Assembly: GCA_965216445.1 (NCBI GenBank)
Contig: OZ244166.1
Location: 1,284,013 to 1,348,012, forward strand
Source: Acidimicrobiia bacterium
Lineage (GTDB): Bacteria; Actinomycetota; Acidimicrobiia; Spongiisociales; ZC4RG35
Direction: 5' to 3'
Length of the DNA: 64,000 nucleotides
In this document: positions 22,088-63,560 of the stretch, one piece after another
How positions within the stretch are numbered: position 1 is the first letter of the stretch
Layout of the letters: every line of letters begins with the position of its first letter
The notes under the pieces: generated by a model
What the model saw: only the letters and a program-made list of their open reading frames with translations
The model's database searches: none
What the model was told of the DNA's origin: nothing
Program-made: the position numbers and the translations under genes

Positions 22088-22966
22088 ATGGCAATGGAAA
22101 ACGCCACGATTGAACATCCCCGAGTTCTTGTTGTCACCGGAATGTCCGGTGCCGGAAGATCATCAGCGGCCAAGGTGCTCGAGGATCTCGGATATGTTGT
22201 CATCGACAATCTGCCCCCGAGGCTTCTCGTGGAGGCTGTCAAGGCCCACGACATACCCGAACAGAACAAGCATCTAGCGGTAGTTGTCGACTCGCGCGGC
22301 GGCCTACCCATAGAAGAGCTCAGCAACGCAATCTTCGAACTTGCTCGAGCCAGCGTGACCAGTCGGATCGTCTTTCTGGATGCCGATGACGAAGTCATCG
22401 TCCGCAGATACGAGGAGAATCGTCGTCCGCATCCGCTGGGAGAGCCAACAATTTCTGCGGCAATCGAGGCAGAACGCGAAATGCTGGCGGACCTGCGGAT
22501 AGTCGCCGACTACTACGTCGACACTTCGTCGCTGAACATCCACGAGTTGCGGGAACAACTGAAGTCGATCTTCTCGCGCGATGACGAATCCAGTTCGATG
22601 AGAGTCTCGGTCAGGTCGTTTGGGTTCAAACACGGCAGCCCAAGAGATGTCGACTTGATGTTCGACGTCCGGTTCCTCCCCAACCCTCATTGGGTCGAAG
22701 AGCTGCGGGACAAGCGTGGCACGGATTCGGCAGTGAGTGAGTACGTGTTGGGTCGGGAGGGTGCCGAGGAGTTTGTTGACAAAGTCGAGGATCTCGTGAC
22801 CTTCCTCATCCCAAAATTCGAGGCGGAAGGCAAGTCTTATCTGTCTGTTGGGATTGGGTGCACTGGAGGACATCACCGCTCGGTTGCAATTGCTGAGGAG
22901 TTGGGGAAAAGACTCAACGGGCAAGACATCAGATCAGCCGTTAGACACCGCGATATCGACAATTGA
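22088..22966 (+). CDS. rapZ: RNase adapter / nucleotide-binding protein RapZ (YvcJ)
   Basis: VVTGMSGAGRSSAAKVLEDLGY P-loop, and FGFKHG..D..FDVRFLPNPHW in the C-terminal half. Confidence 0.92.
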   Translation: MAMENATIEHPRVLVVTGMSGAGRSSAAKVLEDLGYVVIDNLPPRLLVEAVKAHDIPEQNKHLAVVVDSRGGLPIEELSNAIFELARASVTSRIVFLDADDEVIVRRYEENRRPHPLGEPTISAAIEAEREMLADLRIVADYYVDTSSLNIHELREQLKSIFSRDDESSSMRVSVRSFGFKHGSPRDVDLMFDVRFLPNPHWVEELRDKRGTDSAVSEYVLGREGAEEFVDKVEDLVTFLIPKFEAEGKSYLSVGIGCTGGHHRSVAIAEELGKRLNGQDIRSAVRHRDIDN

Positions 22967-23934
22967 GGCCGCTAACCGAAGTTGCCATGGAGCCTCTGCT
23001 CCTCGACCCTGACGGTCCGAAGGTCGTCGCGATAGGGGGTGGGCATGGACAGGCCGCGGCTCTCGAAGCCATCCAGTGCTACGCCTCGGAGATCACGGCC
23101 CTGGTGACTGTGGCGGATGACGGAGGTTCGTCGGGGAGACTTACCGCGTTGGGCATCCCTCCGCCCGGTGACGTGCGGCGATGCCTTCTCGCATTGACTC
23201 CCGAGCCTTCGTTGTGGTCGGAGTTGTTCGCCCATCGTTTCTCTGAAGGTGACGTATTGGACCATTCTCTTGGGAATCTGATCCTGGCTGGTCTGTCCCA
23301 CATGTTTGGAGACTTTGAGACAGCGGTGTCTACGGCAGGACGTGTCCTCGGTGCCGTGGGAGACGTAATTCCTGTTGCTGCCGATCCTTTGACACTCCAT
23401 GCAACCGTGGACGGCAGGAACATCGAGGGTCAGGTGAAGATTGCAACGACCAGAGGGCGAATCGAAGACCTCTGGATTGAACCAGCCGACGCGGTGGCGC
23501 CCAGATCGGCGCTGGCGGCGATTTCGCAGGCGGATCAAATTGTGATCGGGCCGGGAAGCCTATACACGTCCCTGATTTCGGCTCTTAAGGTGAACATGCT
23601 GTCGGAGGCGATCATGAGTTCCTCGGCGCAGCGCGTGTTTGTTTTGAATCTGATGACACAAGACGGAGAAACCCTGGGGATGAGCGGAATTGACCATCTA
23701 AAGGCCCTTCAGCAACATGTCGGCGTGGAAGGGCCGGCCGTTGTCGTCGCCCATGAAGGCGATATCGAGGTACCGGAAGGACACAGTCGTTTGGAGATGG
23801 ATCAGACCACGGCGGCCGAATACGGTTGGCGTCTCGTCGTCGGGGACGTCTCGGACGACCATGCTGAATGGCCAGCTCACGACCCGATGAAGCTCGGCCA
23901 GGTCCTTTCAAATCTTGCGCGTGGGAGCAATTGA
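22963..23934 (+). CDS. yvcK: YvcK/CuvA family gluconeogenesis factor (CofD-like)
   Basis: VVAIGGGHGQAA, VTVADDGGSSGRL and GPGSLYTSL motifs. The start is uncertain: TTG 22963 (TTGA overlap) or ATG 22987. Confidence 0.9.
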   Translation: MRPLTEVAMEPLLLDPDGPKVVAIGGGHGQAAALEAIQCYASEITALVTVADDGGSSGRLTALGIPPPGDVRRCLLALTPEPSLWSELFAHRFSEGDVLDHSLGNLILAGLSHMFGDFETAVSTAGRVLGAVGDVIPVAADPLTLHATVDGRNIEGQVKIATTRGRIEDLWIEPADAVAPRSALAAISQADQIVIGPGSLYTSLISALKVNMLSEAIMSSSAQRVFVLNLMTQDGETLGMSGIDHLKALQQHVGVEGPAVVVAHEGDIEVPEGHSRLEMDQTTAAEYGWRLVVGDVSDDHAEWPAHDPMKLGQVLSNLARGSN

Positions 23935-23935
23935 G

Positions 23936-25081
23936 ATGTATCGGTATCTAACACTCGATCAGATTCCTGTCGCCGGCCTCAAAGTTCTGGTTCGCTCTGA
24001 CCTCAATGTTCCGCTCGATGCCGAAGGTGCAATCTCTGACGACCATCGAATCAGGGCTGCCATGCCTACGTTGGAACGGCTGGTCGAGTCAGGTGCCCGG
24101 GTAAGCGTCTGCTCCCATCTGGGACGACCCAAAGGCGAAGATCCCAGGTATTCGATGGAGCGCGTCGCCCGTCGCATGGCTCACCTTTCCTCAAACGAGG
24201 TCACCTTCGGTGAGAATTCTGGTGGTGAGATCCAGGTGCTGGAGAACACTCGGTTCAACCCGGGAGAGACAGCCAATGATCCCATCTATGCGGCTCGGTT
24301 GGCCAACAGTTTCGATCTGTTTGTCCAAGATGCTTTCGGGACGGTTCATCGCGCTCACGCTTCCACAGTTGGTGTGGCCGGGCTACTGCGGAGTGCCGCG
24401 GGCCCTCTTCTCGAGAAAGAGATGAACGCTTTCCGTCGTTTCACCGATGAGCCCGAGTCTCCCTATACCGTGGTACTTGGTGGAGCCAAGATCTCCGACA
24501 AGCTAGGCGTCATCAAGAACCTCCTCTCCAAAGTCGACCAAATGCTGATAGGTGGTGGCATGTGTTTCACCCTGTTGAAGGCGAGAGGGGAGCGTGTCGG
24601 TGCGTCGATGGTCCAGGACGAAATGCTTGAGGAGACGAAAGACCTTCTCGAGGGTGAGTTCGGCAAGAAGATCATGCTTCCGCTCGATGTTGTCGCTTCC
24701 AATTCATTCACTTCCACTGGCACCAACAGAATTGTTGATGTTCACTCCATGACCGAACATGAAATGGGGCTCGATATTGGGCCAGCAACATCGAACCTGT
24801 TTGCCGATATCGTTCGGCGCTCCAAGACGGTCTTCTGGAACGGCCCGATGGGTGTATTCGAGTGGCGGCCTTACCGACACGGAACGGAGCGGGTTGCCAG
24901 TGCGATGGCATCAACAGAGGGGTTCACGGGCGTCGGTGGGGGAGACTCGGCCGCGGCGATCAGGCTCCTTGGTTATGAAGAGCAGATTGACCATCTGTCG
25001 ACGGGAGGCGGTGCCGGATTGGAGCTCCTGGAAGGACGGGTACTGCCTGGTGTCGAGATCTTGAAGACGTGGGTGGAATAG
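23936..25081 (+). CDS. pgk: phosphoglycerate kinase
   Basis: LVRSDLNVPL, SHLGRPKG, and the C-terminal STGGGAGLELLEG. The ATG at 23936 lies 1 nt after the yvcK stop codon. Confidence 0.95.
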   Translation: MYRYLTLDQIPVAGLKVLVRSDLNVPLDAEGAISDDHRIRAAMPTLERLVESGARVSVCSHLGRPKGEDPRYSMERVARRMAHLSSNEVTFGENSGGEIQVLENTRFNPGETANDPIYAARLANSFDLFVQDAFGTVHRAHASTVGVAGLLRSAAGPLLEKEMNAFRRFTDEPESPYTVVLGGAKISDKLGVIKNLLSKVDQMLIGGGMCFTLLKARGERVGASMVQDEMLEETKDLLEGEFGKKIMLPLDVVASNSFTSTGTNRIVDVHSMTEHEMGLDIGPATSNLFADIVRRSKTVFWNGPMGVFEWRPYRHGTERVASAMASTEGFTGVGGGDSAAAIRLLGYEEQIDHLSTGGGAGLELLEGRVLPGVEILKTWVE

Positions 25082-25083
25082 TG

Positions 25084-25866
25084 GTGACGACTCCTGACCA
25101 AACAAGAGATCTGATCGTCGGCAACTGGAAGATGAACGCAACTCATCTCGACGCCATCCAGATGATCCAAAAGCTCTACTACAGGCTTGAGTCAGACGAT
25201 TACGACCGAGTCGATGTTGTGGTCGCTCCGCCGTTCACAGCCCTACGTTCGGCCCAGACTGTCATCGAAGCAGACCGGATGCTGATTCAGCTTGGCGCCC
25301 AGAACGTCCACTGGGAGGAGAAGGGTGCGTACACCGGAGAGGTCAGTGCTCAGATGCTCAATCGTCTCGCCGTCAGATATGTCATCGTCGGGCACTCGGA
25401 GCGGAGACAATTGTTTGGAGAGACCGACGAGTTGGTCAACAAACGGGTGAGGGCCACGCTCAAGGCAGAGATGTCTCCGATTGTCTGTGTAGGTGAAACG
25501 CTGGACCAAAGGGACTCTGGCGAAGCCGAAGAAGTTGTTACCCGTCAGCTGCGGGGATCGTTAACCCGACTTGCCGCGGATCAACTTTCGACGATTGTGG
25601 TTGCTTATGAGCCGGTTTGGGCAATTGGGACAGGAAGGACGGCCTCACCGGAGGACGCCGGATCCATGTGCTCAACCATTCGCGAGGTGCTCACTGACAT
25701 TGCAAACAGCGATGTCTCCCAGGGCATGAGAATCCTCTATGGAGGTTCGGTGAACGCCGGAAATGTAAGAGACATTATGGCGAAGAAACACGTGAACGGT
25801 GCCCTGGTCGGTGGGGCTTCTCTGGACCCGGACAAGTTCGCGGCGATTGTGAGGTACCGACTTTGA
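25084..25866 (+). CDS. tpiA: triose-phosphate isomerase
   Basis: GNWKMN, VGHSERR and [11 protein letters not shown] motifs. The start is ambiguous: GTG at 25081 or 25084, or the ORF-track start at 25069. Confidence 0.93.
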
Positions 25867-26606
25867 CCTACACTCTCATCCTGCTCCGTCACGGGCAGTC
25901 GCAATGGAACCTCGAGAACCTGTTCACAGGATGGACCGACGTCGGTTTGACCGACCGCGGTCGGGAAGAAGCGGCCAGGTCCGGGGAATTGATGCTCGAA
26001 GCGGGCCTGGCACCGACCAATCTGCACACGTCTTTGCTGAAACGCGCCATCCACACCGCTGAGATCGCACTCGATGTGATGGACCGGTCGTATCTCCCAG
26101 TACAACGTTCTTGGCGGCTCAATGAACGGCACTACGGGGCTCTGCAGGGATTAGACAAGAAGGAAACGGCGGAGATCCATGGAGCAGACCAGGTGCTGCA
26201 ATGGAGAAGGTCCTATGACACACCGCCACCAGCCCTCGAGCCTGACGACGACCGGCACCCGCGACACGACCCGAGATATTCGAATTTGGCGCCCGATGTG
26301 ATTCCGGCGACTGAGGCGCTGATCAACGTCGTCGACAGGATGCTTCCCTACTGGCACGATTCGATTGTGCCTGACCTCAGAGCAGGGAGGCTGCCACTGG
26401 TCGTGGCACACGGAAACTCGCTCCGTGCATTGGTCAAGCATCTCGATGAAGTGCCTACGGATGAGATCGTCGGTCTGAACATTCCGACCGGAATCCCTCT
26501 TGTCTATGAACTCGACGAGGACCTCAAACCGCTGAGCTCGCGGTACCTCGGCGATGCCGCAGCAGCCGAGGCTGCCGCAGCTGAGGTCGCTGGACAGGCC
26601 GGCTAG
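25863..26606 (+). CDS. gpmA: 2,3-bisphosphoglycerate-dependent phosphoglycerate mutase
   Basis: [12 protein letters not shown] catalytic His motif, RLNERHYG and AHGNSLRAL. 4-nt overlap with tpiA. Confidence 0.93.
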
Positions 26607-26647
26607 GCCTACTGGTTGGCCATACGACCCTGGTAGAGTGATACCGA

Positions 26648-26672
26648 CCGTCCGCACCCGGACGGTTTCTCT
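26648..26672 (+). terminator. weak hairpin with a T-rich tail after gpmA
   Basis: CCGTCCG-cacc-CGGACGG followed by TTTCTCT. The U-tract is poor, so termination may be partial. Confidence 0.35.
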
Positions 26673-26687
26673 AGGCACAAAGAAACT

Positions 26688-26927
26688 ATGTCAATTGTTG
26701 AAGCACTTCTCGTAATCGTCCACGTACTGCTCAGCCTCGCTGTGATCGCTTTGGTGTTGCTCCACTCGGGTAAGGGCGGAGGCTTGTCCGACGTCTTCGG
26801 CGGCGGCATGAGCACGTCGAACCTGGGCGGTTCAACGGTGGTCGAACGAAATCTGGACCGGCTCACATGGATCGTCGGGATCCTGTTCGGTATCAGCACC
26901 TTCGTTCTCACATTCGTCTTGAGCTGA
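26688..26927 (+). CDS. secG: preprotein translocase subunit SecG
   Basis: 79 aa, two TM segments, and the LLHSGKGGGLSDVFGGG signature. Confidence 0.9.
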   Translation: MSIVEALLVIVHVLLSLAVIALVLLHSGKGGGLSDVFGGGMSTSNLGGSTVVERNLDRLTWIVGILFGISTFVLTFVLS

Positions 26928-26960
26928 ACCGGCGATAAAATCGCTGCCAGCTCAAATCCT

Positions 26961-27046
26961 GTCGGAGTGGCGGAATTGGTAGACGCGCCAGGCTAAGGAC
27001 CTGGTCGGGAGTTTTCCCGGTGGAGGTTCGAGTCCTCTCTCCGACA
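26961..27046 (+). tRNA. tRNA-Leu (class II, long variable arm); the anticodon loop reads CTAAGGA, giving anticodon AAG
   Basis: I folded it by hand. Acceptor stem GTCGGAG/CTCCGAC. Three-bp D-stem around the AATTGGTAGA loop. Anticodon stem CCAGG/CCTGG (26988-92 / 27000-04). Variable arm CGGGA-gttt-TCCCG. T-arm GGAGG-TTCGAGT-CCTCT. Discriminator A. No encoded CCA. Confidence 0.9.
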
Positions 27047-27398
27047 CTGCGAGCCCAAACTTGGGCTCGTTTTGGACTTCTGGCTCCGCCGAAAGCTCGG
27101 CTCCACCAGAACTCCGACGGTCGCTGTCAAAAAGGTTGTCCTTCTAGGAACGGCGGTTCGAGTTCTCTCCCCGACACTGCGAGCCCAAACTTGGGCTCGT
27201 TTTGGACTTCTGGCTCCGCCGAAAGCTCGGCTCCACCAGAACTCCGACGGTCGCTGTCAAAAAGGTTGTCCTTCTAGGAACGGCGGTTCGAGTTCTCTCC
27301 CCGACACTGCGAGCCCAAACTTGGGCTCGTTTTGGACTTCTGGCTCCGCCGAAAGCTCGGCTCCACCAGAACTCCGACGGTCGCTGTCAAAAACGTTG
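27022..27398 (+). repeat. 130-bp tandem repeat, about 2.9 copies, whose first copy overlaps the T-arm and acceptor 3' end of tRNA-Leu
   Basis: The period is exactly 130: TTCGAG begins at 27027, 27157 and 27287. Copies 2 and 3 are identical up to 27393. Copy 1 differs only at 2 positions, both inside the tRNA-derived segment. Copy 3 diverges after GTCAAAAA. Confidence 0.97.
27050..27073 (+). terminator. intrinsic terminator directly after tRNA-Leu, with identical copies at 27180..27203 and 27310..27333
   Basis: cGAGCCCAA-ac-TTGGGCTCg followed by TTTT. It belongs to the 130-bp repeat unit and therefore occurs three times. Confidence 0.7.
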
Positions 27399-27424
27399 TC
27401 CTCATCGATTGCGACGATGCAACG
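27389..27424 (-). terminator. probable terminator of the convergent lipoprotein gene
   Basis: Read on the minus strand: CGTTGCATCG-tcgcaat-CGATG-agga-CAACG followed by TTTTT, about 35 nt after the stop codon at 27459. Confidence 0.45.
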
Positions 27425-27458
27425 CTTTGGTCCAAGCAGGAGACTGTTCCAAGCCCCG

Positions 27459-28781
27459 CTATCCCGGCAGGAACAGCCGGGAACGCGTTTGCACGATGTT
27501 CTGGTCACCGGATGACAAGTTGATTGCTACCAAGGCAATCTGATTTGGTTCAGGTCCCGGTGAGTCTCCAAGGCACGCCACTACCCAATCGGTGTCCGCC
27601 TCGAGACAGAGGACTGGTCCATCGAATTCCCACCGTCCGAGTTCGGAGCCGGAGGCGAAATCAACCGCAACGACTACCGGGCTGAAGAAGTGCGAGTATG
27701 CGGCGGCGTCGGCGTGGTCAACATACAGTAGGGTTTCGCCGTTGGCACTGATACGCGTGAAGCCGGCGTAGCCATCATTCAGAAGGTCGATTCCGTCACT
27801 ATTCACAATTGAAACCAGGTTGCCTTCGGCGTCGCCCACGGCGATAAAGGCTGATCCACCACGCTCCTCCATCCAGGAGTAGCCGCTCTCGGGAGCAGGT
27901 TCAGGCGGGGGAATCAGAGGGCTATCGGCGTCGCCGGTCACGACATCGATCATCGTCCATTTGTCGGGGTCAACGCAGTCGTCGAGAGTAAAAACGCTTC
28001 CGTTTCGTTCCAAAGGCTGGCTACATCCAGGCTCGTATGTCGTTAACGGATCGTCAATAGGGGTGGCGAGCAGGGTTGATGTGAACGGGTGGGATACGAA
28101 TGCCACTTGCCTCTCGATGGCGTATGTGTCCTTAGCCCACCAGTTGACCACCCAATGAGGCGAACCATCAACCCACGCCTCGAAGCCACTGAATCGCTCC
28201 ACAACAACACTGTCTGGGGGCCGGTCGCCAAATAAGTCGTTCACTATCGCGCCAGAGTCAGGTGACTGTTCCAGGGGTGGTAGCCCGGCAACAATCTGCT
28301 GTCCCTCAAAGGTGAACAGGTTGAGGAATGCCACCGCTCCAGATGCGCCGTGCGTCACCTGCACCGTAGATGCCGCCTGGCCGGTGCTGGGGTTGACGAT
28401 CCCCGGACCCTGGGCCTGGACTCCATAGGGCCCCTCACACGCGCCGCCGCGACAGAATCGCTCCAGAGTCTGGGCGTTTGTCTCACCAGGATCGCTGCCT
28501 TGAATCTGGATGCCATTGTTGTCAGCGCTGAACGCTGCGACATCCCAGGCCCCGGCTGCAAGGGCTGCGAGGTAGTTCTCGACGATCCGTTCAGCTTCAA
28601 CGTCGGTCCAGGCGATCTCCGTTTCGAACGTGGTAGATGGGGTCGAGAGGGTCGAGGTTGTAGATGAGGTGGCTTGCGACGCGACAACGGTCGGGTTGGT
28701 GGGTGTAGAAGTCGAGGTGTCTGAAGAACCGCTGGTGGTGCAGGCTGTGACGAAGATGAGAATCGGGATTAAGCGCCTCAC
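27459..28781 (-). CDS. lipoprotein of unknown function (Ser/Thr-rich linker plus a Cys-containing globular region)
   Basis: 440 aa. The signal peptide MRRLIPILIFVTAC carries a lipobox-like FVTAC. A 40-aa S/T/P-rich tract follows. I recognise no family. Confidence 0.7.
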   Translation of the reverse strand: MRRLIPILIFVTACTTSGSSDTSTSTPTNPTVVASQATSSTTSTLSTPSTTFETEIAWTDVEAERIVENYLAALAAGAWDVAAFSADNNGIQIQGSDPGETNAQTLERFCRGGACEGPYGVQAQGPGIVNPSTGQAASTVQVTHGASGAVAFLNLFTFEGQQIVAGLPPLEQSPDSGAIVNDLFGDRPPDSVVVERFSGFEAWVDGSPHWVVNWWAKDTYAIERQVAFVSHPFTSTLLATPIDDPLTTYEPGCSQPLERNGSVFTLDDCVDPDKWTMIDVVTGDADSPLIPPPEPAPESGYSWMEERGGSAFIAVGDAEGNLVSIVNSDGIDLLNDGYAGFTRISANGETLLYVDHADAAAYSHFFSPVVVAVDFASGSELGRWEFDGPVLCLEADTDWVVACLGDSPGPEPNQIALVAINLSSGDQNIVQTRSRLFLPG

Positions 28782-28824
28782 TCCACAGAAACGTACCCGA
28801 ACCGACGGTCGTTCCCTGTTGAAC

Positions 28825-30120
28825 TCACTCTCGTGTAAGTGAATTCAGCGAAGCCCCTTCGGGTTCCTTTTCGGTCTCGACACGCGGCCCGAAGGTGTCA
28901 CGCCAAACAACTGTTGTATATAGCCACAAAGCAACCCCAACGATCAAGAATGGGAAGGTTCGCGCCACTATCGGATACGTCTCCTCGCTGGATCCGAGCC
29001 ACGCGCCGACGAGGGCACCAAGGGGGAGAGTCGCCCATCCAATGGCTCGAGATGCGGTGATGACCCGGCCCAGCATTGACTCCGTCGCGTAGTGCTGTCG
29101 GATGGTGGCCAGCGCCACGTTGATGAACCCGACACCAATCATCCAACCGATCTGCAACGCGACGGTCAAGAAGCTGTACGTAGTGAACATCACCGCAGCG
29201 AGACATGCCCCGGTCAGGGTCATGCCAACTGTCATGGTCGCTCCTAGACCGATCCTCTGAATGAGACGTGGTGCCACGAGAGCGCCGATCACCCCACCGA
29301 CACCGAAGGCAGCCAGCAAGATCCCAATGGCAAGTTCGTCCTCGGTGCCAAAGACAAAGAAGGCGAGGACGACAAAGGTCCCTTCGACGAAACCAACAAC
29401 GAAGTTGGGTATGGCTGACGCAATCGTGGTGATCCGCAACCGGGGCTCCTGCATGATGTAGCGGATGCCGTTGGCTGCTTCGGTGAAGAAGCCCTGCCGC
29501 TCGTCGTGTTCCGGTCGATGATGCGCGACCCGACCAACCCAATAGAGGGACACTGCTGAGAGAACAAAGGTCAGGCCGTTGATGAAGAGACCAAAGGCGG
29601 GTGTGCCGGTACTGACTGCCATTACTCCAGCGGCCAGTGGCCCCAACGCGAAGTTCGCCTGCTGAGAGGCCGCGATGAACCCGTTTGCGTCAGCGAGCCT
29701 GTTTTCGGGGACGAGGGCGGGTACCAGCGAAAACAGGGCACCGTCGAACAGGGTGGTCATCGAGCCGACCAGGAAGGCGACGACAAACACAGTGTTGACG
29801 CCATAGGAGCCGATCGAGGCGGCGAGGTAGAAGAAGGCTGAGGCTCTGAGAAGGTCGGTCGCGATCATGATCGGGCGCAGATGCCACCGATCTAGTAGGA
29901 CCCCGCCGAGAAGGCCGACAATCAGTGTCGGACCGGTCTCCAGGGCGTATGTGATCGAAAAGTCCAAAATCGACTGACTTCCGGCCTGGTCGTGGATGTA
30001 GTCGACAAGCAGGGGCAGACTGAGAAAGGCGACATATGTCCCGAACTGGCTGACCGTCTGGCCGATCCAGAGGGCGGTGTATCGGGGCCCAAACGCGGTC
30101 AACGTACGTGAGGATCTCAC
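28825..30120 (-). CDS. MFS transporter
   Basis: 431 aa, about 12 TM segments. The N-terminal YTALWIGQTVSQFGTYVAFLSLPLLV is typical of the EntS/MFS_3-like subgroup. The substrate is unknown. Confidence 0.85.
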   Translation of the reverse strand: MRSSRTLTAFGPRYTALWIGQTVSQFGTYVAFLSLPLLVDYIHDQAGSQSILDFSITYALETGPTLIVGLLGGVLLDRWHLRPIMIATDLLRASAFFYLAASIGSYGVNTVFVVAFLVGSMTTLFDGALFSLVPALVPENRLADANGFIAASQQANFALGPLAAGVMAVSTGTPAFGLFINGLTFVLSAVSLYWVGRVAHHRPEHDERQGFFTEAANGIRYIMQEPRLRITTIASAIPNFVVGFVEGTFVVLAFFVFGTEDELAIGILLAAFGVGGVIGALVAPRLIQRIGLGATMTVGMTLTGACLAAVMFTTYSFLTVALQIGWMIGVGFINVALATIRQHYATESMLGRVITASRAIGWATLPLGALVGAWLGSSEETYPIVARTFPFLIVGVALWLYTTVVWRDTFGPRVETEKEPEGASLNSLTRE

Positions 30121-35218: not shown

Positions 35219-35407
35219 ATGGCAGAACAAGAGAGATCGCAGGAAAAGGGCCGCTCCCAGGAGGAGCAGGTCGAAGAGGTCGAAGCGGTCACTGAGACAG
35301 ACACAGATCTCGAGGCCCTCGACGACCTGCTCGACGAGATCGATGAGGTACTCGAGGAGAACGCCGAGGAGTTCGTCAAGAACTACGTACAAAAGGGCGG
35401 CGAGTGA
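35219..35407 (+). CDS. pup: prokaryotic ubiquitin-like protein Pup (C-terminal GGE form)
   Basis: 62 aa, highly acidic. DDLLDEIDEVLEENAEEFVKNYVQKGGE ends in GGE. GGAGG Shine-Dalgarno sequence upstream. Confidence 0.93.
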   Translation: MAEQERSQEKGRSQEEQVEEVEAVTETDTDLEALDDLLDEIDEVLEENAEEFVKNYVQKGGE

Positions 35408-45278: not shown

Positions 45279-45737
45279 ATGGCCAAGAAAAAGACCTCAA
45301 CTGAGGTAGAAGAAGTTCTCGACGAAGTCGATCCCGACCTCGATGAAGACCTCGACGAAGACCTTGACGACGATGTCATCGAGGATCTGGACGACGTCAT
45401 CGATGATCTCGATGTGGACGTTGACATCGACGACGATGACGAACCTGAAAGTCCCGAGTCGGGTGGCGGAAAGGCCGACCAGGACGAAGAGACAACCGAA
45501 GCTCTCGAAGAATTGGAGACTCAGGAACTCCAGCTGCTCGAGGAGGAGAAAAACGACAATCTGCTGGTAGACGAGGTAGAGGAGCTGCGTGCCATCCGAC
45601 GCGAAGAACTCACCATGAACGTCGATACCCAATCACAACGCTCCGACGAATTTGTTTGCCAATCTTGTTTCATGGTGAAACGCACTAGCCAGCTGGCGAA
45701 TAAGCGAAAGAAGCTCTGCGCTGACTGTGCCGGCTGA
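45279..45737 (+). CDS. DUF4193-like protein (poly-acidic N-terminus, C-terminal CxxC..CxxC)
   Basis: 152 aa. An extremely D/E-rich first 100 aa are followed by EFVCQSCFMVKRTSQLANKRKKLCADC, which is typical of actinobacterial DUF4193 proteins. Confidence 0.7.
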   Translation: MAKKKTSTEVEEVLDEVDPDLDEDLDEDLDDDVIEDLDDVIDDLDVDVDIDDDDEPESPESGGGKADQDEETTEALEELETQELQLLEEEKNDNLLVDEVEELRAIRREELTMNVDTQSQRSDEFVCQSCFMVKRTSQLANKRKKLCADCAG

Positions 45738-63466: not shown

Positions 63467-63485
63467 GACCGAGCACCTGGATCAG

Positions 63486-63560
63486 TCGGGCTGGGGAGAT
63501 TTGAACTCCCGACCTCCGGTCCCCCAGACCGGCGCGCTAACCAAGCTGCGCCACAGCCCG
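63486..63560 (-). tRNA. tRNA-Pro (anticodon GGG)
   Basis: The reverse complement CGGGCTG-TG-GCGC-AGCTTGGTTA-GCGC-G-CCGGT-CTGGGGG-ACCGG-AGGTC-GGGAG-TTCAAAT-CTCCC-CAGCCCG-A folds as a canonical 75-nt cloverleaf. Confidence 0.92.

What the first reader, a model, noticed from the sequence alone, without database searches (positions are those of the whole stretch)
27022..27398. 130-bp tRNA-linked tandem repeat (about 2.9 copies) fused to the 3' end of tRNA-Leu
**Repeat geometry.** The last ~30 nt of tRNA-Leu (T-arm plus 3' acceptor strand) are the start of a 130-bp unit. The unit recurs at exactly 130-bp spacing, with TTCGAG at 27027, 27157 and 27287. Copies 2 and 3 are identical. Copy 1 differs at only 2 positions, both in the tRNA-derived segment. 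In copies 2 and 3 that segment can no longer form a T-stem.

**Contents of each unit:**
- the degenerate tRNA 3' fragment;
- an intrinsic-terminator hairpin, cGAGCCCAA-ac-TTGGGCTCg followed by TTTT;
- a 42-nt imperfect hairpin GGACTTCTGG-ctcc-GCCGA-aagc-TCGGC-tcca-CCAGAACTCC (27074-27115 in copy 1);
- an A5 tract.

**Why it is unusual.** The triplicated 'MDFWLRRKLGS...' ORFs in the track are only the repeat read in one frame. There is no integrase or other mobile gene nearby, and the array ends where the terminator of a convergent lipoprotein gene begins. The closest precedent I know is the E. coli tyrT operon. There, a 178-bp unit containing the tRNA 3' end is repeated about 3 times and gives rise to the rtT RNA.

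**Possible roles (all inference):** a family of processed small RNAs released by tRNA-processing enzymes, a triple terminator or insulator, or scars of repeated att-site recombination.
Basis: partly seen in the sequence, partly recalled or inferred. Interest (0 to 1): 0.7.

Follow-up and report, generated by a model that had tools for sequence, protein, structure and literature searches.

The report
tRNA-linked tandem repeat after tRNA-Leu
The last 22 bases of a leucine tRNA gene and its two-hairpin tail have been copied head-to-tail almost three times in an Acidimicrobiia genome; this is a real but probably functionless duplication of a kind long known next to E. coli tRNA genes, and it has arisen separately at the same gene in related bacteria.

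Summary
A 130-bp unit lies at 27025-27402 in 2.9 copies (98% matches). It starts in the T-arm of tRNA-Leu(AAG) (26961-27046). Each unit holds a 22-nt copy of the tRNA 3' end, a GC-rich hairpin followed by T4, a 42-nt hairpin and an A5 tract.

Nothing suggests a mobile element:
- there is no integrase in the flanks;
- there are no phage, plasmid or viral-contig matches;
- there is no other copy in the window.

Rfam finds only the tRNA.

Two other Acidimicrobiia lineages carry independent arrays at the same secG-tRNA-Leu locus. Their units are 95 and 104 nt, with different sequences and different left boundaries. Assemblies at least 99.97% identical upstream differ in the number of extra units (none, one, or one plus a partial unit). 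About eleven other lineages have no array.

The architecture matches the E. coli "tRNA-linked repeats" (tyrT/RtT, 178 bp x 3.1, checked here), but there is no homology to RtT.

Best reading: a recent local tandem duplication that was then expanded by unequal exchange or slippage. It is tolerated because the first copy keeps the tRNA intact and the extra copies lie behind a terminator. Any function, such as back-up termination or small RNAs, is untested. This is a new member of a known kind, of modest interest.

The parts
26688..26927 (+). secG, the gene immediately upstream of the tRNA
   Evidence: 79-aa ORF. Pfam SecG, E = 1.2e-19. The gpmA-secG-tRNA-Leu order is shared with all relatives fetched.
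26936..26941 (+). TAAAAT, a -10-like hexamer about 20 nt upstream of the tRNA 5' end. It is the putative promoter of the tRNA itself (inference).
   Evidence: A TAAAAT, TAAACT or TACACT hexamer sits at the same offset in the window and in 11 related loci. The sigma-70 consensus scan did not call a full promoter.
26961..27046 (+). tRNA-Leu(AAG). It is intact, and CCA is not encoded (the sequence continues CTG).
   Evidence: ARAGORN. Rfam RF00005, 55.4 bits. The 3' half is identical to the orthologous tRNA of relatives.
27025..27154 (+). Repeat copy 1. It holds the true tRNA T-loop and 3' strand (27025-27046), the trailer and the 12-nt junction.
   Evidence: TRF, the repeat finder and the register alignment.
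27155..27284 (+). Repeat copy 2. It holds the degenerate tRNA 3' fragment (27155-27176, 20 of 22 identical), the trailer and the junction.
   Evidence: No T-stem is predicted.
27285..27402 (+). Repeat copy 3, partial at 118 nt. It is identical to copy 2 up to 27394, has G>C at 27395, and leaves the repeat after 27402.
27049..27073 (+). Hairpin 1 plus T4 (GCGAGCCCA-AACT-TGGGCTCGT, then TTT), a terminator-like element 3 nt after the tRNA end. Copies lie at 27179-27203 and 27309-27333.
   Evidence: RNAfold gives -16.4 kcal/mol. Inverted-repeat arms are at 27050-27069, 27180-27199 and 27310-27329. The consensus terminator scan did not call it because the tail has only 4 T.
27074..27115 (+). Hairpin 2, the 42-nt imperfect hairpin. 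Copies lie at 27204-27245 and 27334-27375.
   Evidence: RNAfold gives -20.4 kcal/mol. It folds the same way in every unit of the whole transcript. A second hairpin at the same position exists in relatives L001, L005 and L038, with different sequence.
27129..27133 (+). A5 tract. Copies lie at 27259-27263 and 27389-27393.
   Evidence: Read directly from the sequence.
27143..27154 (+). The 12-nt junction (filler) TCTAGGAACGGC between units. A second copy lies at 27273-27284, and it is absent after copy 3.
   Evidence: It occurs only twice in the window, even allowing one mismatch. It has no significant similarity to the tRNA 5' part or to the rest of the unit.
27403..27419 (.). Small palindrome CATCGATTGCGACGATG, which abuts the end of the array. 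It is the first unique sequence after the repeat.
   Evidence: Read directly from the sequence. It is not called as a terminator on either strand.
27459..28781 (-). Convergent 440-aa ORF with a lipoprotein-type N-terminus (…FVTAC). It is part of a variable stretch between tRNA-Leu and the MFS gene.
   Evidence: ORF. No Pfam family. The best homologue is 54% identical and lies in an unrelated context. Relatives carry other genes at this position.

Best explanation
This is a tRNA-linked repeat array. A local tandem duplication copied the segment that runs from the T-arm of tRNA-Leu(AAG), through its 3' end, into its two-hairpin 3' trailer.

**How the copies arose (inferred).**
- A first, non-homologous event joined the trailer back to the T-arm through a 12-nt filler. 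It left two base changes next to that junction.
- Later, unequal homologous exchange or replication slippage between the two 130-bp copies added the third unit, which is identical to the second.

**Why it is tolerated (inferred).**
- The first copy supplies the true tRNA 3' end, which is identical to that of relatives.
- The extra copies have no promoter and sit behind the first terminator-like hairpin. They would be transcribed only by read-through.
- When that happens, each unit offers the same hairpin-plus-T4 again, so the array acts at most as a series of back-up terminators.
- Duplications with one breakpoint inside the gene and the other downstream always leave one intact gene. This explains why such arrays are seen at tRNA 3' ends.

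**Shown:** the anatomy, the intact first copy, recurrence at this locus, and differences in unit number between near-identical assemblies of a relative.

**Inferred:** the order of events, the recombination mechanism and the lack of a selected function.
For: **Anatomy.**
- Period 130, 2.9 copies, no indels.
- Copies 2 and 3 are identical, including the junction. Copy 1 differs only at two sites within 22 nt of the junction. If substitutions fell evenly over the unit, the chance that both land there is about 0.03.
- Copy 1 carries the 3' end seen in all relatives, so the changes are in the pseudo-copies.
- The pseudo-copies cannot form a T-stem, and ARAGORN and Rfam see a single tRNA.

**Independent arrays at the same secG-tRNA-Leu locus.**
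- L041 and L040: the unit is 95 nt, made of 52 nt of trailer, 26 nt of filler and 17 nt of tRNA 3' end. Both are read through to the unique flank. L003 ends inside the array. L039 starts inside the trailer.
- L024, L027, L028 and L029: the unit is 104 nt and carries the last 58 nt of tRNA-Leu(GAG). L024 has one extra unit and L028 at least 3.2 copies.

**Differences between assemblies.** L001, L040 and L041 are at least 99.97% identical over 3.56 kb upstream. They carry no extra unit, one extra unit plus a 51-nt partial unit, and one extra unit, respectively.

**Not conserved.** About eleven other lineages have no second tRNA 3' fragment.

**The trailer is local, not imported.** Relatives have the same two-hairpin layout directly after the tRNA.
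Against: - The 12-nt (window) and 26-nt (L041) fillers are not what simple slippage or unequal crossing-over between short homologies produces, and I could not trace their origin.
- Arrays in 3 of about 14 lineages at one locus is frequent. The left boundaries fall in tRNA loops or stems (T-arm twice, anticodon stem once), which are also the classic crossover sites of tRNA-targeting integrases.
- E. coli keeps 22 such repeats, and three of them give Hfq/CsrA-binding small RNAs (PMC8144298). Lack of function therefore cannot be assumed.
- No expression data exist for this organism.
- The differences among L001, L040 and L041 rest on short-read metagenome assemblies, which can collapse or extend tandem repeats.
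Confidence: 0.6

Rival explanations
1. The array is a selected multiple terminator or insulator. Three hairpin-plus-T4 modules in series would stop read-through from a strongly transcribed tRNA gene into the convergent 440-aa gene. The extra units would be kept because a four-U terminator leaks.
For: - Every unit carries hairpin 1 (-16.4 kcal/mol) followed by T4, then hairpin 2.
- The T-run is short, so the consensus scan does not call it.
- The downstream gene is convergent and ends 56 nt after the array.
- Dual terminators with a tRNA-linked repeat between them are described for E. coli rrn operons (PMC8144298).
Against: - Most related lineages manage with a single trailer. This includes lineages with a convergent downstream gene (L001, L038, L045).
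- Near-identical assemblies of a relative differ in whether the extra units are present, which argues against strong selection.
- Duplicating the hairpins alone would achieve termination. The tRNA fragment and the filler have no role in this model.
Confidence: 0.15
2. The array is a functional small-RNA array like RtT/TLR. Read-through transcripts would be cut after each tRNA-like 3' end, or end at each hairpin. This would release structured RNAs of about 130 nt that act in trans or titrate processing enzymes.
For: - The architecture is the same as the E. coli tyrT repeats that yield RtT RNA.
- Three rrn-linked repeats in E. coli give Hfq/CsrA-binding small RNAs (PMC8144298).
- The unit folds better than shuffled sequence (z = -2.5 on the + strand, -3.4 on the - strand).
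Against: - There is no Rfam hit other than the tRNA, even at E <= 1.
- The pseudo 3' ends carry two changes that abolish the T-stem and mismatch the acceptor strand. Recognition by RNase P or RNase Z as a tRNA-like substrate is therefore unlikely.
- A terminator-like hairpin precedes every extra unit.
- The unit sequence is not conserved in any relative (blastn against all fetched loci), and the arrays are lineage-specific and vary between assemblies.
- According to PMC8144298, the tRNA-operon repeats of E. coli still have no known function.
Confidence: 0.1
3. The copies are scars of site-specific recombination. They would be attR-like remnants left by repeated integration, or by decay, of integrase-bearing elements that target the 3' part of tRNA-Leu.
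For: - The repeat boundaries fall in the T-arm (window, L041) and the anticodon stem (L024 lineage). From my own knowledge (Williams 2002), these are the sublocations used by tRNA-targeting tyrosine integrases.
- In the L024 lineage the extra unit looks like a whole tRNA copy. Its 5' 30 nt are diverged and its 3' 58 nt are identical (p about 0.001).
- Gene content between tRNA-Leu and the MFS gene varies among lineages.
Against: - The 'element' between repeats would be only 107 nt. About 95 nt of that is the host's own trailer, at 99-100% identity.
- There is no integrase in the flanks of the window or of any related locus.
- Neither the tRNA 3' part nor the junctions occur in IMG/VR viral contigs. 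The array has no match in the phage or plasmid collections.
- There is no distal tRNA fragment elsewhere in the window.
- There is no compositional anomaly.
Confidence: 0.07
4. The copy number is an assembly artefact. The repeat would exist, but the third unit (or the second) would come from mis-resolving identical 130-bp units.
For: - Copies 2 and 3 are identical over 243 nt, which is longer than typical short reads.
- Related short-read contigs break in or at such arrays (L003, L004, L006, L026, L030, L039).
Against: - The source contig is 2.61 Mb. That suggests long reads or a finished genome (inference).
- Three distinct junction types exist in the sequence: tRNA to unit, unit to unit, and unit to unique flank. 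At least two units must therefore be real.
- Comparable arrays are read through in independent assemblies of relatives (L024, L040, L041).
Confidence: 0.08

Closest known systems
E. coli tRNA-linked repeats (TLRs), with the tyrT-tyrV 178-bp repeats (RtT RNA, rttR, Rfam RF00391) as prototype. References: Egan & Landy 1978 and Rudd 1999, as summarised in PMC8144298.
   Same: - It is a non-coding tandem repeat directly downstream of a tRNA gene on the same strand, and the array overlaps the tRNA's own 3' end.
- There are about 3 copies of a unit of 100-180 bp.
- Every unit reproduces about 20 nt of the tRNA 3' end, starting in the T-loop region.
- I verified this for E. coli: period 178, 3.1 copies, and the last 19 nt of tyrV present in each unit.
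- PMC8144298 describes 22 such repeats at ten E. coli loci, with 18-19 bp of each repeat's 3' end identical to the upstream gene's 3' end. For the tRNA-operon members it reports no known function.
   Different: - There is no sequence or structure homology. RF00391 hits the E. coli units at 133-137 bits and does not hit the window at E <= 1.
- The tRNA-derived part is 20/22 identical here, not identical.
- Each unit here carries its own hairpin-plus-T4 immediately after the (pseudo) tRNA end.
- CCA is not encoded.
- The host is an Acidimicrobiia bacterium (Actinomycetota), not an enterobacterium.
- Units are joined through a 12-nt filler.
E. coli rrn-operon TLRs rrA, rrB and rrF, which lie between the dual terminators T1 and T2 (PMC8144298)
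   Same: The repeat lies after the first terminator of a stable-RNA gene, is reached only by read-through, and ends with a copy of the upstream gene's 3' end.
   Different: - Those are single units, conserved across Enterobacterales, experimentally transcribed and processed, and bind Hfq and CsrA.
- The present units are not conserved in relatives, and their expression is unknown.
attL/attR direct repeats of integrative elements inserted in tRNA 3' ends (own knowledge: Williams 2002, Nucleic Acids Res, sublocation classes)
   Same: There are direct repeats of the 3' part of a tRNA gene, with boundaries in the T-loop or anticodon-loop region. The first copy completes a functional tRNA.
   Different: - There is no element and no integrase between or near the repeats.
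- The repeated block extends about 100 nt beyond the tRNA into host trailer.
- No matching attP was found in the viral, phage or plasmid collections.
Tandem trnF pseudogene arrays in the plastid trnL-trnF spacer of Brassicaceae (own knowledge: Koch et al. 2005; not checked here)
   Same: They are lineage-specific arrays, variable in copy number, of partial tRNA gene copies plus flanking spacer next to the functional tRNA gene. They are interpreted as products of illegitimate recombination and unequal crossing-over.
   Different: They occur in plastid genomes, the copies lie upstream of the functional gene, and they carry different parts of the tRNA.

Membership tests
tRNA-linked repeats (TLR class, as described for E. 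coli in PMC8144298) | The repeat lies immediately downstream of a tRNA (or rRNA) gene, on the same strand, within the stable-RNA locus. | tested here: met
   The array at 27025-27402 (+) overlaps the 3' end of tRNA-Leu at 26961-27046 (+). Co-transcription is inferred, not shown.
tRNA-linked repeats (TLR class, as described for E. coli in PMC8144298) | Each repeat ends with a copy of the last ~18-19 nt of the upstream gene. | tested here: met
   A 22-nt copy of the tRNA 3' end is present at 27155-27176 and 27285-27306.
tRNA-linked repeats (TLR class, as described for E. coli in PMC8144298) | That copy is identical to the gene's 3' end over 18-19 bp. | tested here: inconclusive
   In the window the copy is 20/22 identical, with exact runs of 9, 5 and 6 nt. 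In the related arrays it is exact: 17/17 in L003, L040 and L041, and 58/58 in the L024 lineage. The source paper gives no tolerance for mismatches.
tRNA-linked repeats (TLR class, as described for E. coli in PMC8144298) | The repeat is transcribed with, and processed from, the stable-RNA precursor. | not testable with these tools
   No expression data are available for this organism.
RtT RNA (Rfam RF00391) | A match to the covariance model at or above the gathering score (45 bits). | tested here: not met
   cmscan of 25000-29500 at E <= 1 finds only tRNA. The same library gives 133-137 bits on the four E. coli units.
Integrative-element attachment-site repeats (attL/attR) | The direct repeats flank an inserted element that encodes, or once encoded, an integrase. 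| tested here: not met
   The repeats are 107 nt apart. The flanking genes are secG and glycolysis genes upstream, and an ORF with no family, MFS, holin-X and TrmI downstream. The same holds in the relatives.
Integrative-element attachment-site repeats (attL/attR) | The sequence next to the repeated core is element-derived and recurs in phages, plasmids or viral contigs (attP). | tested here: not met
   There are 0 matches in IMG/VR for the tRNA 3' 20-mer and for three junction sequences. There is no blastn match in the phage or plasmid collections. The sequence next to the core is the host trailer itself.
Intrinsic (Rho-independent) terminator (applies to hairpin 1) | A GC-rich stem-loop followed directly by a U-run. 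| tested here: inconclusive
   The stem has 9 pairs at -16.4 kcal/mol. The tail is TTTTGG, only 4 T, which is below the scan's threshold of 5 in 8. From my own knowledge, short-tailed terminators are reported for Actinobacteria.
Dispersed intergenic repeats (REP- or MITE-like) | Many copies are scattered over the genome. | tested here: inconclusive
   There is no other copy in the 64-kb window. A genome-collection scan with a 20-mer of hairpin 2 found only 7 single hits in unrelated phyla, about the chance expectation, and did not find the source genome. The rest of the 2.6-Mb genome could therefore not be examined.

The most novel reading that the evidence does not exclude
tRNA-linked repeat arrays may be a convergent, selected feature of stable-RNA genes in distant phyla rather than a neutral by-product. 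On this reading a process tied to the tRNA 3' end and its terminator makes them repeatedly. Candidates are template switching at stalled forks in highly transcribed, hairpin-rich DNA, or an unrecognised site-specific activity at tRNA loops. Read-through transcripts of the units would be released as structured RNAs of about 100-130 nt that regulate, or buffer, tRNA 3' processing or termination. The Acidimicrobiia arrays would then offer an independent system for the question of what TLRs do, which has been open since 1978.
Probability: 0.1. Interest if true: 0.6.

Novelty: new member of a known kind. Interest (0 to 1): 0.35.

Why it matters
tRNA-linked repeats have been catalogued in E. coli since 1978. 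Most still have no function and no accepted origin.

This finding shows the same architecture in an Acidimicrobiia genome. It arose independently at least three times at one tRNA-Leu locus, and near-identical assemblies of a relative differ in unit number. That favours a general, recurrent duplication process at tRNA 3' ends over a lineage-specific functional RNA.

Practical consequences:
- such arrays break short-read assemblies exactly at tRNA genes;
- they create spurious ORFs;
- they can be mistaken for attachment-site scars of mobile elements.

If the units turned out to be expressed, they would give a second, unrelated system for asking what these repeats do.

Tried and rejected
1. **Other assemblies of the same species.** The exact SecG is not on record. 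The downstream ORF has no homologue above 54% identity, and that homologue lies elsewhere in its genome. Copy-number variation in the window's own species could not be tested.

2. **Dispersed copies.** That scan was therefore spent with little gain.

3. **Unbiased metagenome scan with the tRNA's variable-arm region.** It gave 9 loci, and none of the 8 new ones has an array.

4. **Possible attP in viruses, phages or plasmids.** Four IMG/VR pattern scans and two blastn searches were all empty.

5. **My impression that the junction fillers are degenerate tRNA sequence.** Shuffle tests reject this for the window (p = 0.76) and for L003 (p = 0.38). It holds only for the L024 lineage (p about 0.001).

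6. **Filler templated from elsewhere in the unit, the right flank or the window.** No significant match was found.

7. **Coding potential.** The 147-aa ORF across the repeat has no Pfam hit, and the period is not a multiple of 3.

8. **Foreign-DNA signature.** There is no GC or skew anomaly between 24 and 31 kb.

9. **Older primary papers on tyrT/RtT** (Bösl & Kersten 1991). They are not held in the library. Statements about Rho-dependent termination in tyrT were therefore left out.
Full report
**Observation.**
Tandem Repeats Finder reports 27025-27402, period 130, 2.9 copies, 98% matches, no indels, score 735. The repeat finder gives three copies at exactly 130-nt spacing.
- ARAGORN finds tRNA-Leu(AAG) at 26961-27047 (+), and Rfam's tRNA model matches 26961-27046 at 55.4 bits.
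- The repeat starts at GGTTCGAG (27025), in the 5' strand of the T-stem. The last 22 nt of the tRNA are therefore the first 22 nt of copy 1.
- Copy 2 (27155-27284) differs from copy 1 at two sites. Both lie in the tRNA-derived part (C>T in the T-stem, T>C in the acceptor strand).
- Copy 3 is identical to copy 2 up to 27394, has one change at 27395, and leaves the repeat after 27402.

**Anatomy.** Each unit contains the following parts.
- The tRNA 3' fragment. The true T-arm folds at -5.5 kcal/mol. The pseudo-copies form no T-stem.
- Hairpin 1, three nt after the (pseudo) tRNA end. It has 9 pairs, folds at -16.4 kcal/mol and is followed by TTTT.
- Hairpin 2, the 42-nt imperfect hairpin, at -20.4 kcal/mol.
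- An A5 tract.
- A 12-nt junction, TCTAGGAACGGC, that links one unit to the next. It occurs nowhere else in the window.

The consensus scan did not call hairpin 1 a terminator, because its tail has four T rather than five. The unit folds somewhat better than shuffled sequence on both strands (z = -2.5 and -3.4). The ORFs across the repeat are artefacts. 130 is not a multiple of three, and the longest one has no Pfam match. An Rfam search at E <= 1 finds nothing but the tRNA.

**Context.**
- Upstream lie uvrC, rapZ, a CofD/YvcK-like gene, pgk, tpiA, gpmA and secG, all on the + strand (Pfam labels from the syntenic relatives, and SecG).
- A TAAAAT hexamer at 26936-26941 sits about 20 nt before the tRNA. 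It is conserved in position in 11 related loci. I take it as the tRNA's own -10 element (inference).
- Downstream, 56 nt after the array, a convergent 440-aa ORF with a lipoprotein-type N-terminus ends at 27459. It has no Pfam family.
- An MFS transporter, a holin-X-like protein and TrmI follow, as in the relatives.
- There is no integrase or transposase in these flanks, and base composition is flat.
- The organism is an Acidimicrobiia bacterium. The source contig is 2.61 Mb, and the closest gpmA in the database is 83% identical.

**Related loci.** This is the most informative result. I fetched the orthologous gpmA-secG-tRNA-Leu locus from about 14 lineages. Two of them carry their own arrays, with unrelated unit sequences.

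*The lineage of L001.* Its tRNA matches the window's except at one variable-arm base, and its gpmA is 81% identical.
- L041 reads: tRNA, 52-nt two-hairpin trailer, 26-nt filler, last 17 nt of the tRNA, the same trailer again, then the unique flank. This is a 95-nt unit.
- L040 has that plus a further 51-nt partial unit.
- L003 ends inside the second unit.
- L039 is a contig that starts inside the trailer and runs into the unique flank.
- L001, L002 and L018 have a single trailer.
- L001, L040 and L041 are at least 99.97% identical over 3.56 kb upstream. The array therefore differs between near-identical assemblies.

*The lineage of L024.* It has tRNA-Leu(GAG) at the same locus.
- The unit is 104 nt and carries the last 58 nt of the tRNA.
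- L024 has one extra unit and reads through. L028 has at least 3.2 perfect copies before the contig ends.
- There the 46-nt spacer is itself significantly similar to the tRNA 5' part (p about 0.001). The unit is therefore a whole tRNA copy with a decayed 5' third.

*The other lineages.*
- The remaining lineages, about eleven, have no second tRNA 3' fragment.
- Several short contigs stop exactly at the tRNA's 3' end (L004, L006, L026, L030). This would be expected if repeats or strain heterogeneity start there.

*Caveat.* These are short-read metagenome assemblies. The unit numbers, though not the existence of the junctions, could be affected by repeat collapse.

**The trailer is local, not imported.** Relatives L001, L005 and L038 have the same layout directly after the tRNA: a GC-rich hairpin, then a second hairpin with a T-rich 5' arm and an A-rich 3' arm. 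Their sequences differ. What was duplicated in the window is therefore this gene's own 3' trailer.

**Tests of a mobile or attachment-site origin.**
- The repeated block extends about 100 nt beyond the tRNA into host trailer, at 99-100% identity. The space between tRNA fragments is 107 nt.
- No integrase is nearby, in the window or in any relative.
- The tRNA 3' 20-mer and three junction sequences give no hit in IMG/VR. The array has no blastn match in the phage or plasmid collections.
- No further tRNA-Leu fragment lies elsewhere in the window, and tRNA-Pro at 63485-63560 has no such repeat.
- In favour of such an origin: the left boundaries fall in the T-arm (twice) and the anticodon stem (once), and gene content between tRNA-Leu and the MFS gene differs between lineages. 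The best homologue of the window's 440-aa ORF lies in an unrelated context.
- My impression that the fillers are degenerate tRNA sequence did not survive shuffle tests for the window or L003 (p = 0.76 and 0.38).
- I rate the scar model as unlikely.

**Comparison with what is known.**
E. coli "tRNA-linked repeats" number 22 at ten loci. Each ends with 18-19 bp identical to the 3' end of the upstream tRNA or rRNA gene. Those in tRNA operons have no known function. Three in rrn operons give small RNAs that bind Hfq and CsrA (PMC8144298, read).
- I checked the prototype directly. In MG1655 the array downstream of tyrV has period 178 and 3.1 copies. It overlaps the tyrV 3' end, and the last 19 nt of the tRNA recur at 178-nt spacing.
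- Rfam RtT (RF00391) hits the four E. coli units at 133-137 bits and does not hit the window.
- The window's array therefore has the TLR architecture but is not homologous to RtT. It also differs in having its tRNA fragment 20/22 rather than identical, a hairpin-plus-T4 in each unit, and a 12-nt filler.

**Most likely mechanism.**
- The first event was a non-homologous tandem duplication. Its left breakpoint was in the T-arm and its right breakpoint about 95 nt downstream of the tRNA. It produced a filler and two nearby base changes.
- Both changes lie within 22 nt of the junction. If substitutions fell evenly over the unit, the chance of that is about 0.03. This clustering, together with the fillers, fits a template-switching type of event better than clean slippage (inference).
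- Unequal exchange or slippage between the two 130-bp copies then made the third unit, which is identical to the second.
- Such duplications leave the gene intact, and copy 1 keeps the ancestral 3' end. They place the extra copies, which have no promoter, behind a terminator-like hairpin. They are therefore nearly neutral. This explains why they are seen at 3' ends, arise repeatedly, and come and go between strains (inference).
- Functionally, the extra units can at most add back-up termination.
- I give this reading about 0.6. The selected-terminator, small-RNA, att-scar and assembly-artefact readings get the remainder.

**Verdict.** The kind is already known, and this is a new member from a distant phylum. 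Its recurrence at one locus, and the differences between near-identical assemblies, are modestly new information about how such repeats arise. Interest 0.35.

Noticed in passing
window 27403-28824, compared with L001 6173-7763, L005 3314-4347, L038 4172-6110 and L024 1742-3875: The stretch between tRNA-Leu and the conserved MFS transporter gene carries different genes in each lineage. The window has a 440-aa lipoprotein-like ORF. L001 has a 169-aa ORF and a 269-aa Flp/Fap-like ORF. L038 has a polyketide-cyclase-like ORF and a Flp/Fap-like ORF. L024 has glyoxalase, MOSC and others. The best homologue of the window's ORF (54%) lies in an unrelated context in another 2.3-Mb genome (L046). No integrase is present in any of them.
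   Followed up: partly
L040 3765-3890: Beyond the 95-nt extra unit, this MAG has a further 51-nt partial unit (TCTCTCCTGAGCTGCGATCGGCGTG plus hairpin 2). Both fillers in this lineage begin with TCTCTC, the same bases as the tRNA's acceptor-proximal TCTCTCC. This hints at serial template switching.
   Followed up: partly
L024 1638-1741; L028 1155-1489: In the tRNA-Leu(GAG) lineage the 104-nt unit is a whole pseudo-tRNA. Its 3' 58 nt are identical to the gene and its 5' 30 nt are diverged. The spacer forms a perfect 8-bp hairpin (CCACTCCG-AG-CGGAGTGG) whose 3' arm equals tRNA positions 3-10.
   Followed up: partly
window 26936-26941, and the same offset in L001, L004, L005, L014, L020, L022, L024, L031, L038, L042 and L045: A conserved TAAAAT, TAAACT or TACACT hexamer lies about 20 nt upstream of the tRNA 5' end, just after the secG stop codon. 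It is probably the tRNA's own -10 element.
   Followed up: no
L004 (end 6171), L006 (end 1774), L026 (end 2451), L030 (end 1269): Several metagenome contigs terminate at, within or a few nt past the tRNA-Leu 3' end. Further arrays or strain-level heterogeneity may start there in those populations too.
   Followed up: no
window 22963-25081: The CofD/YvcK-like gene is followed directly by pgk. No whiA and no gap gene lie between them, unlike the rapZ-yvcK-whiA and gap-pgk-tpi arrangements I know from other Actinobacteria (own knowledge). The relatives fetched have the same order.
   Followed up: no
window 45336-45409 and 35330-35369: There are short tandem repeats with periods of 12 and 21 nt (GACCTCGACGAA x 2.9; a 21-mer x 2.0; another 21-mer x 1.9). 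The periods are multiples of three, so they are probably acidic peptide repeats within genes.
   Followed up: no
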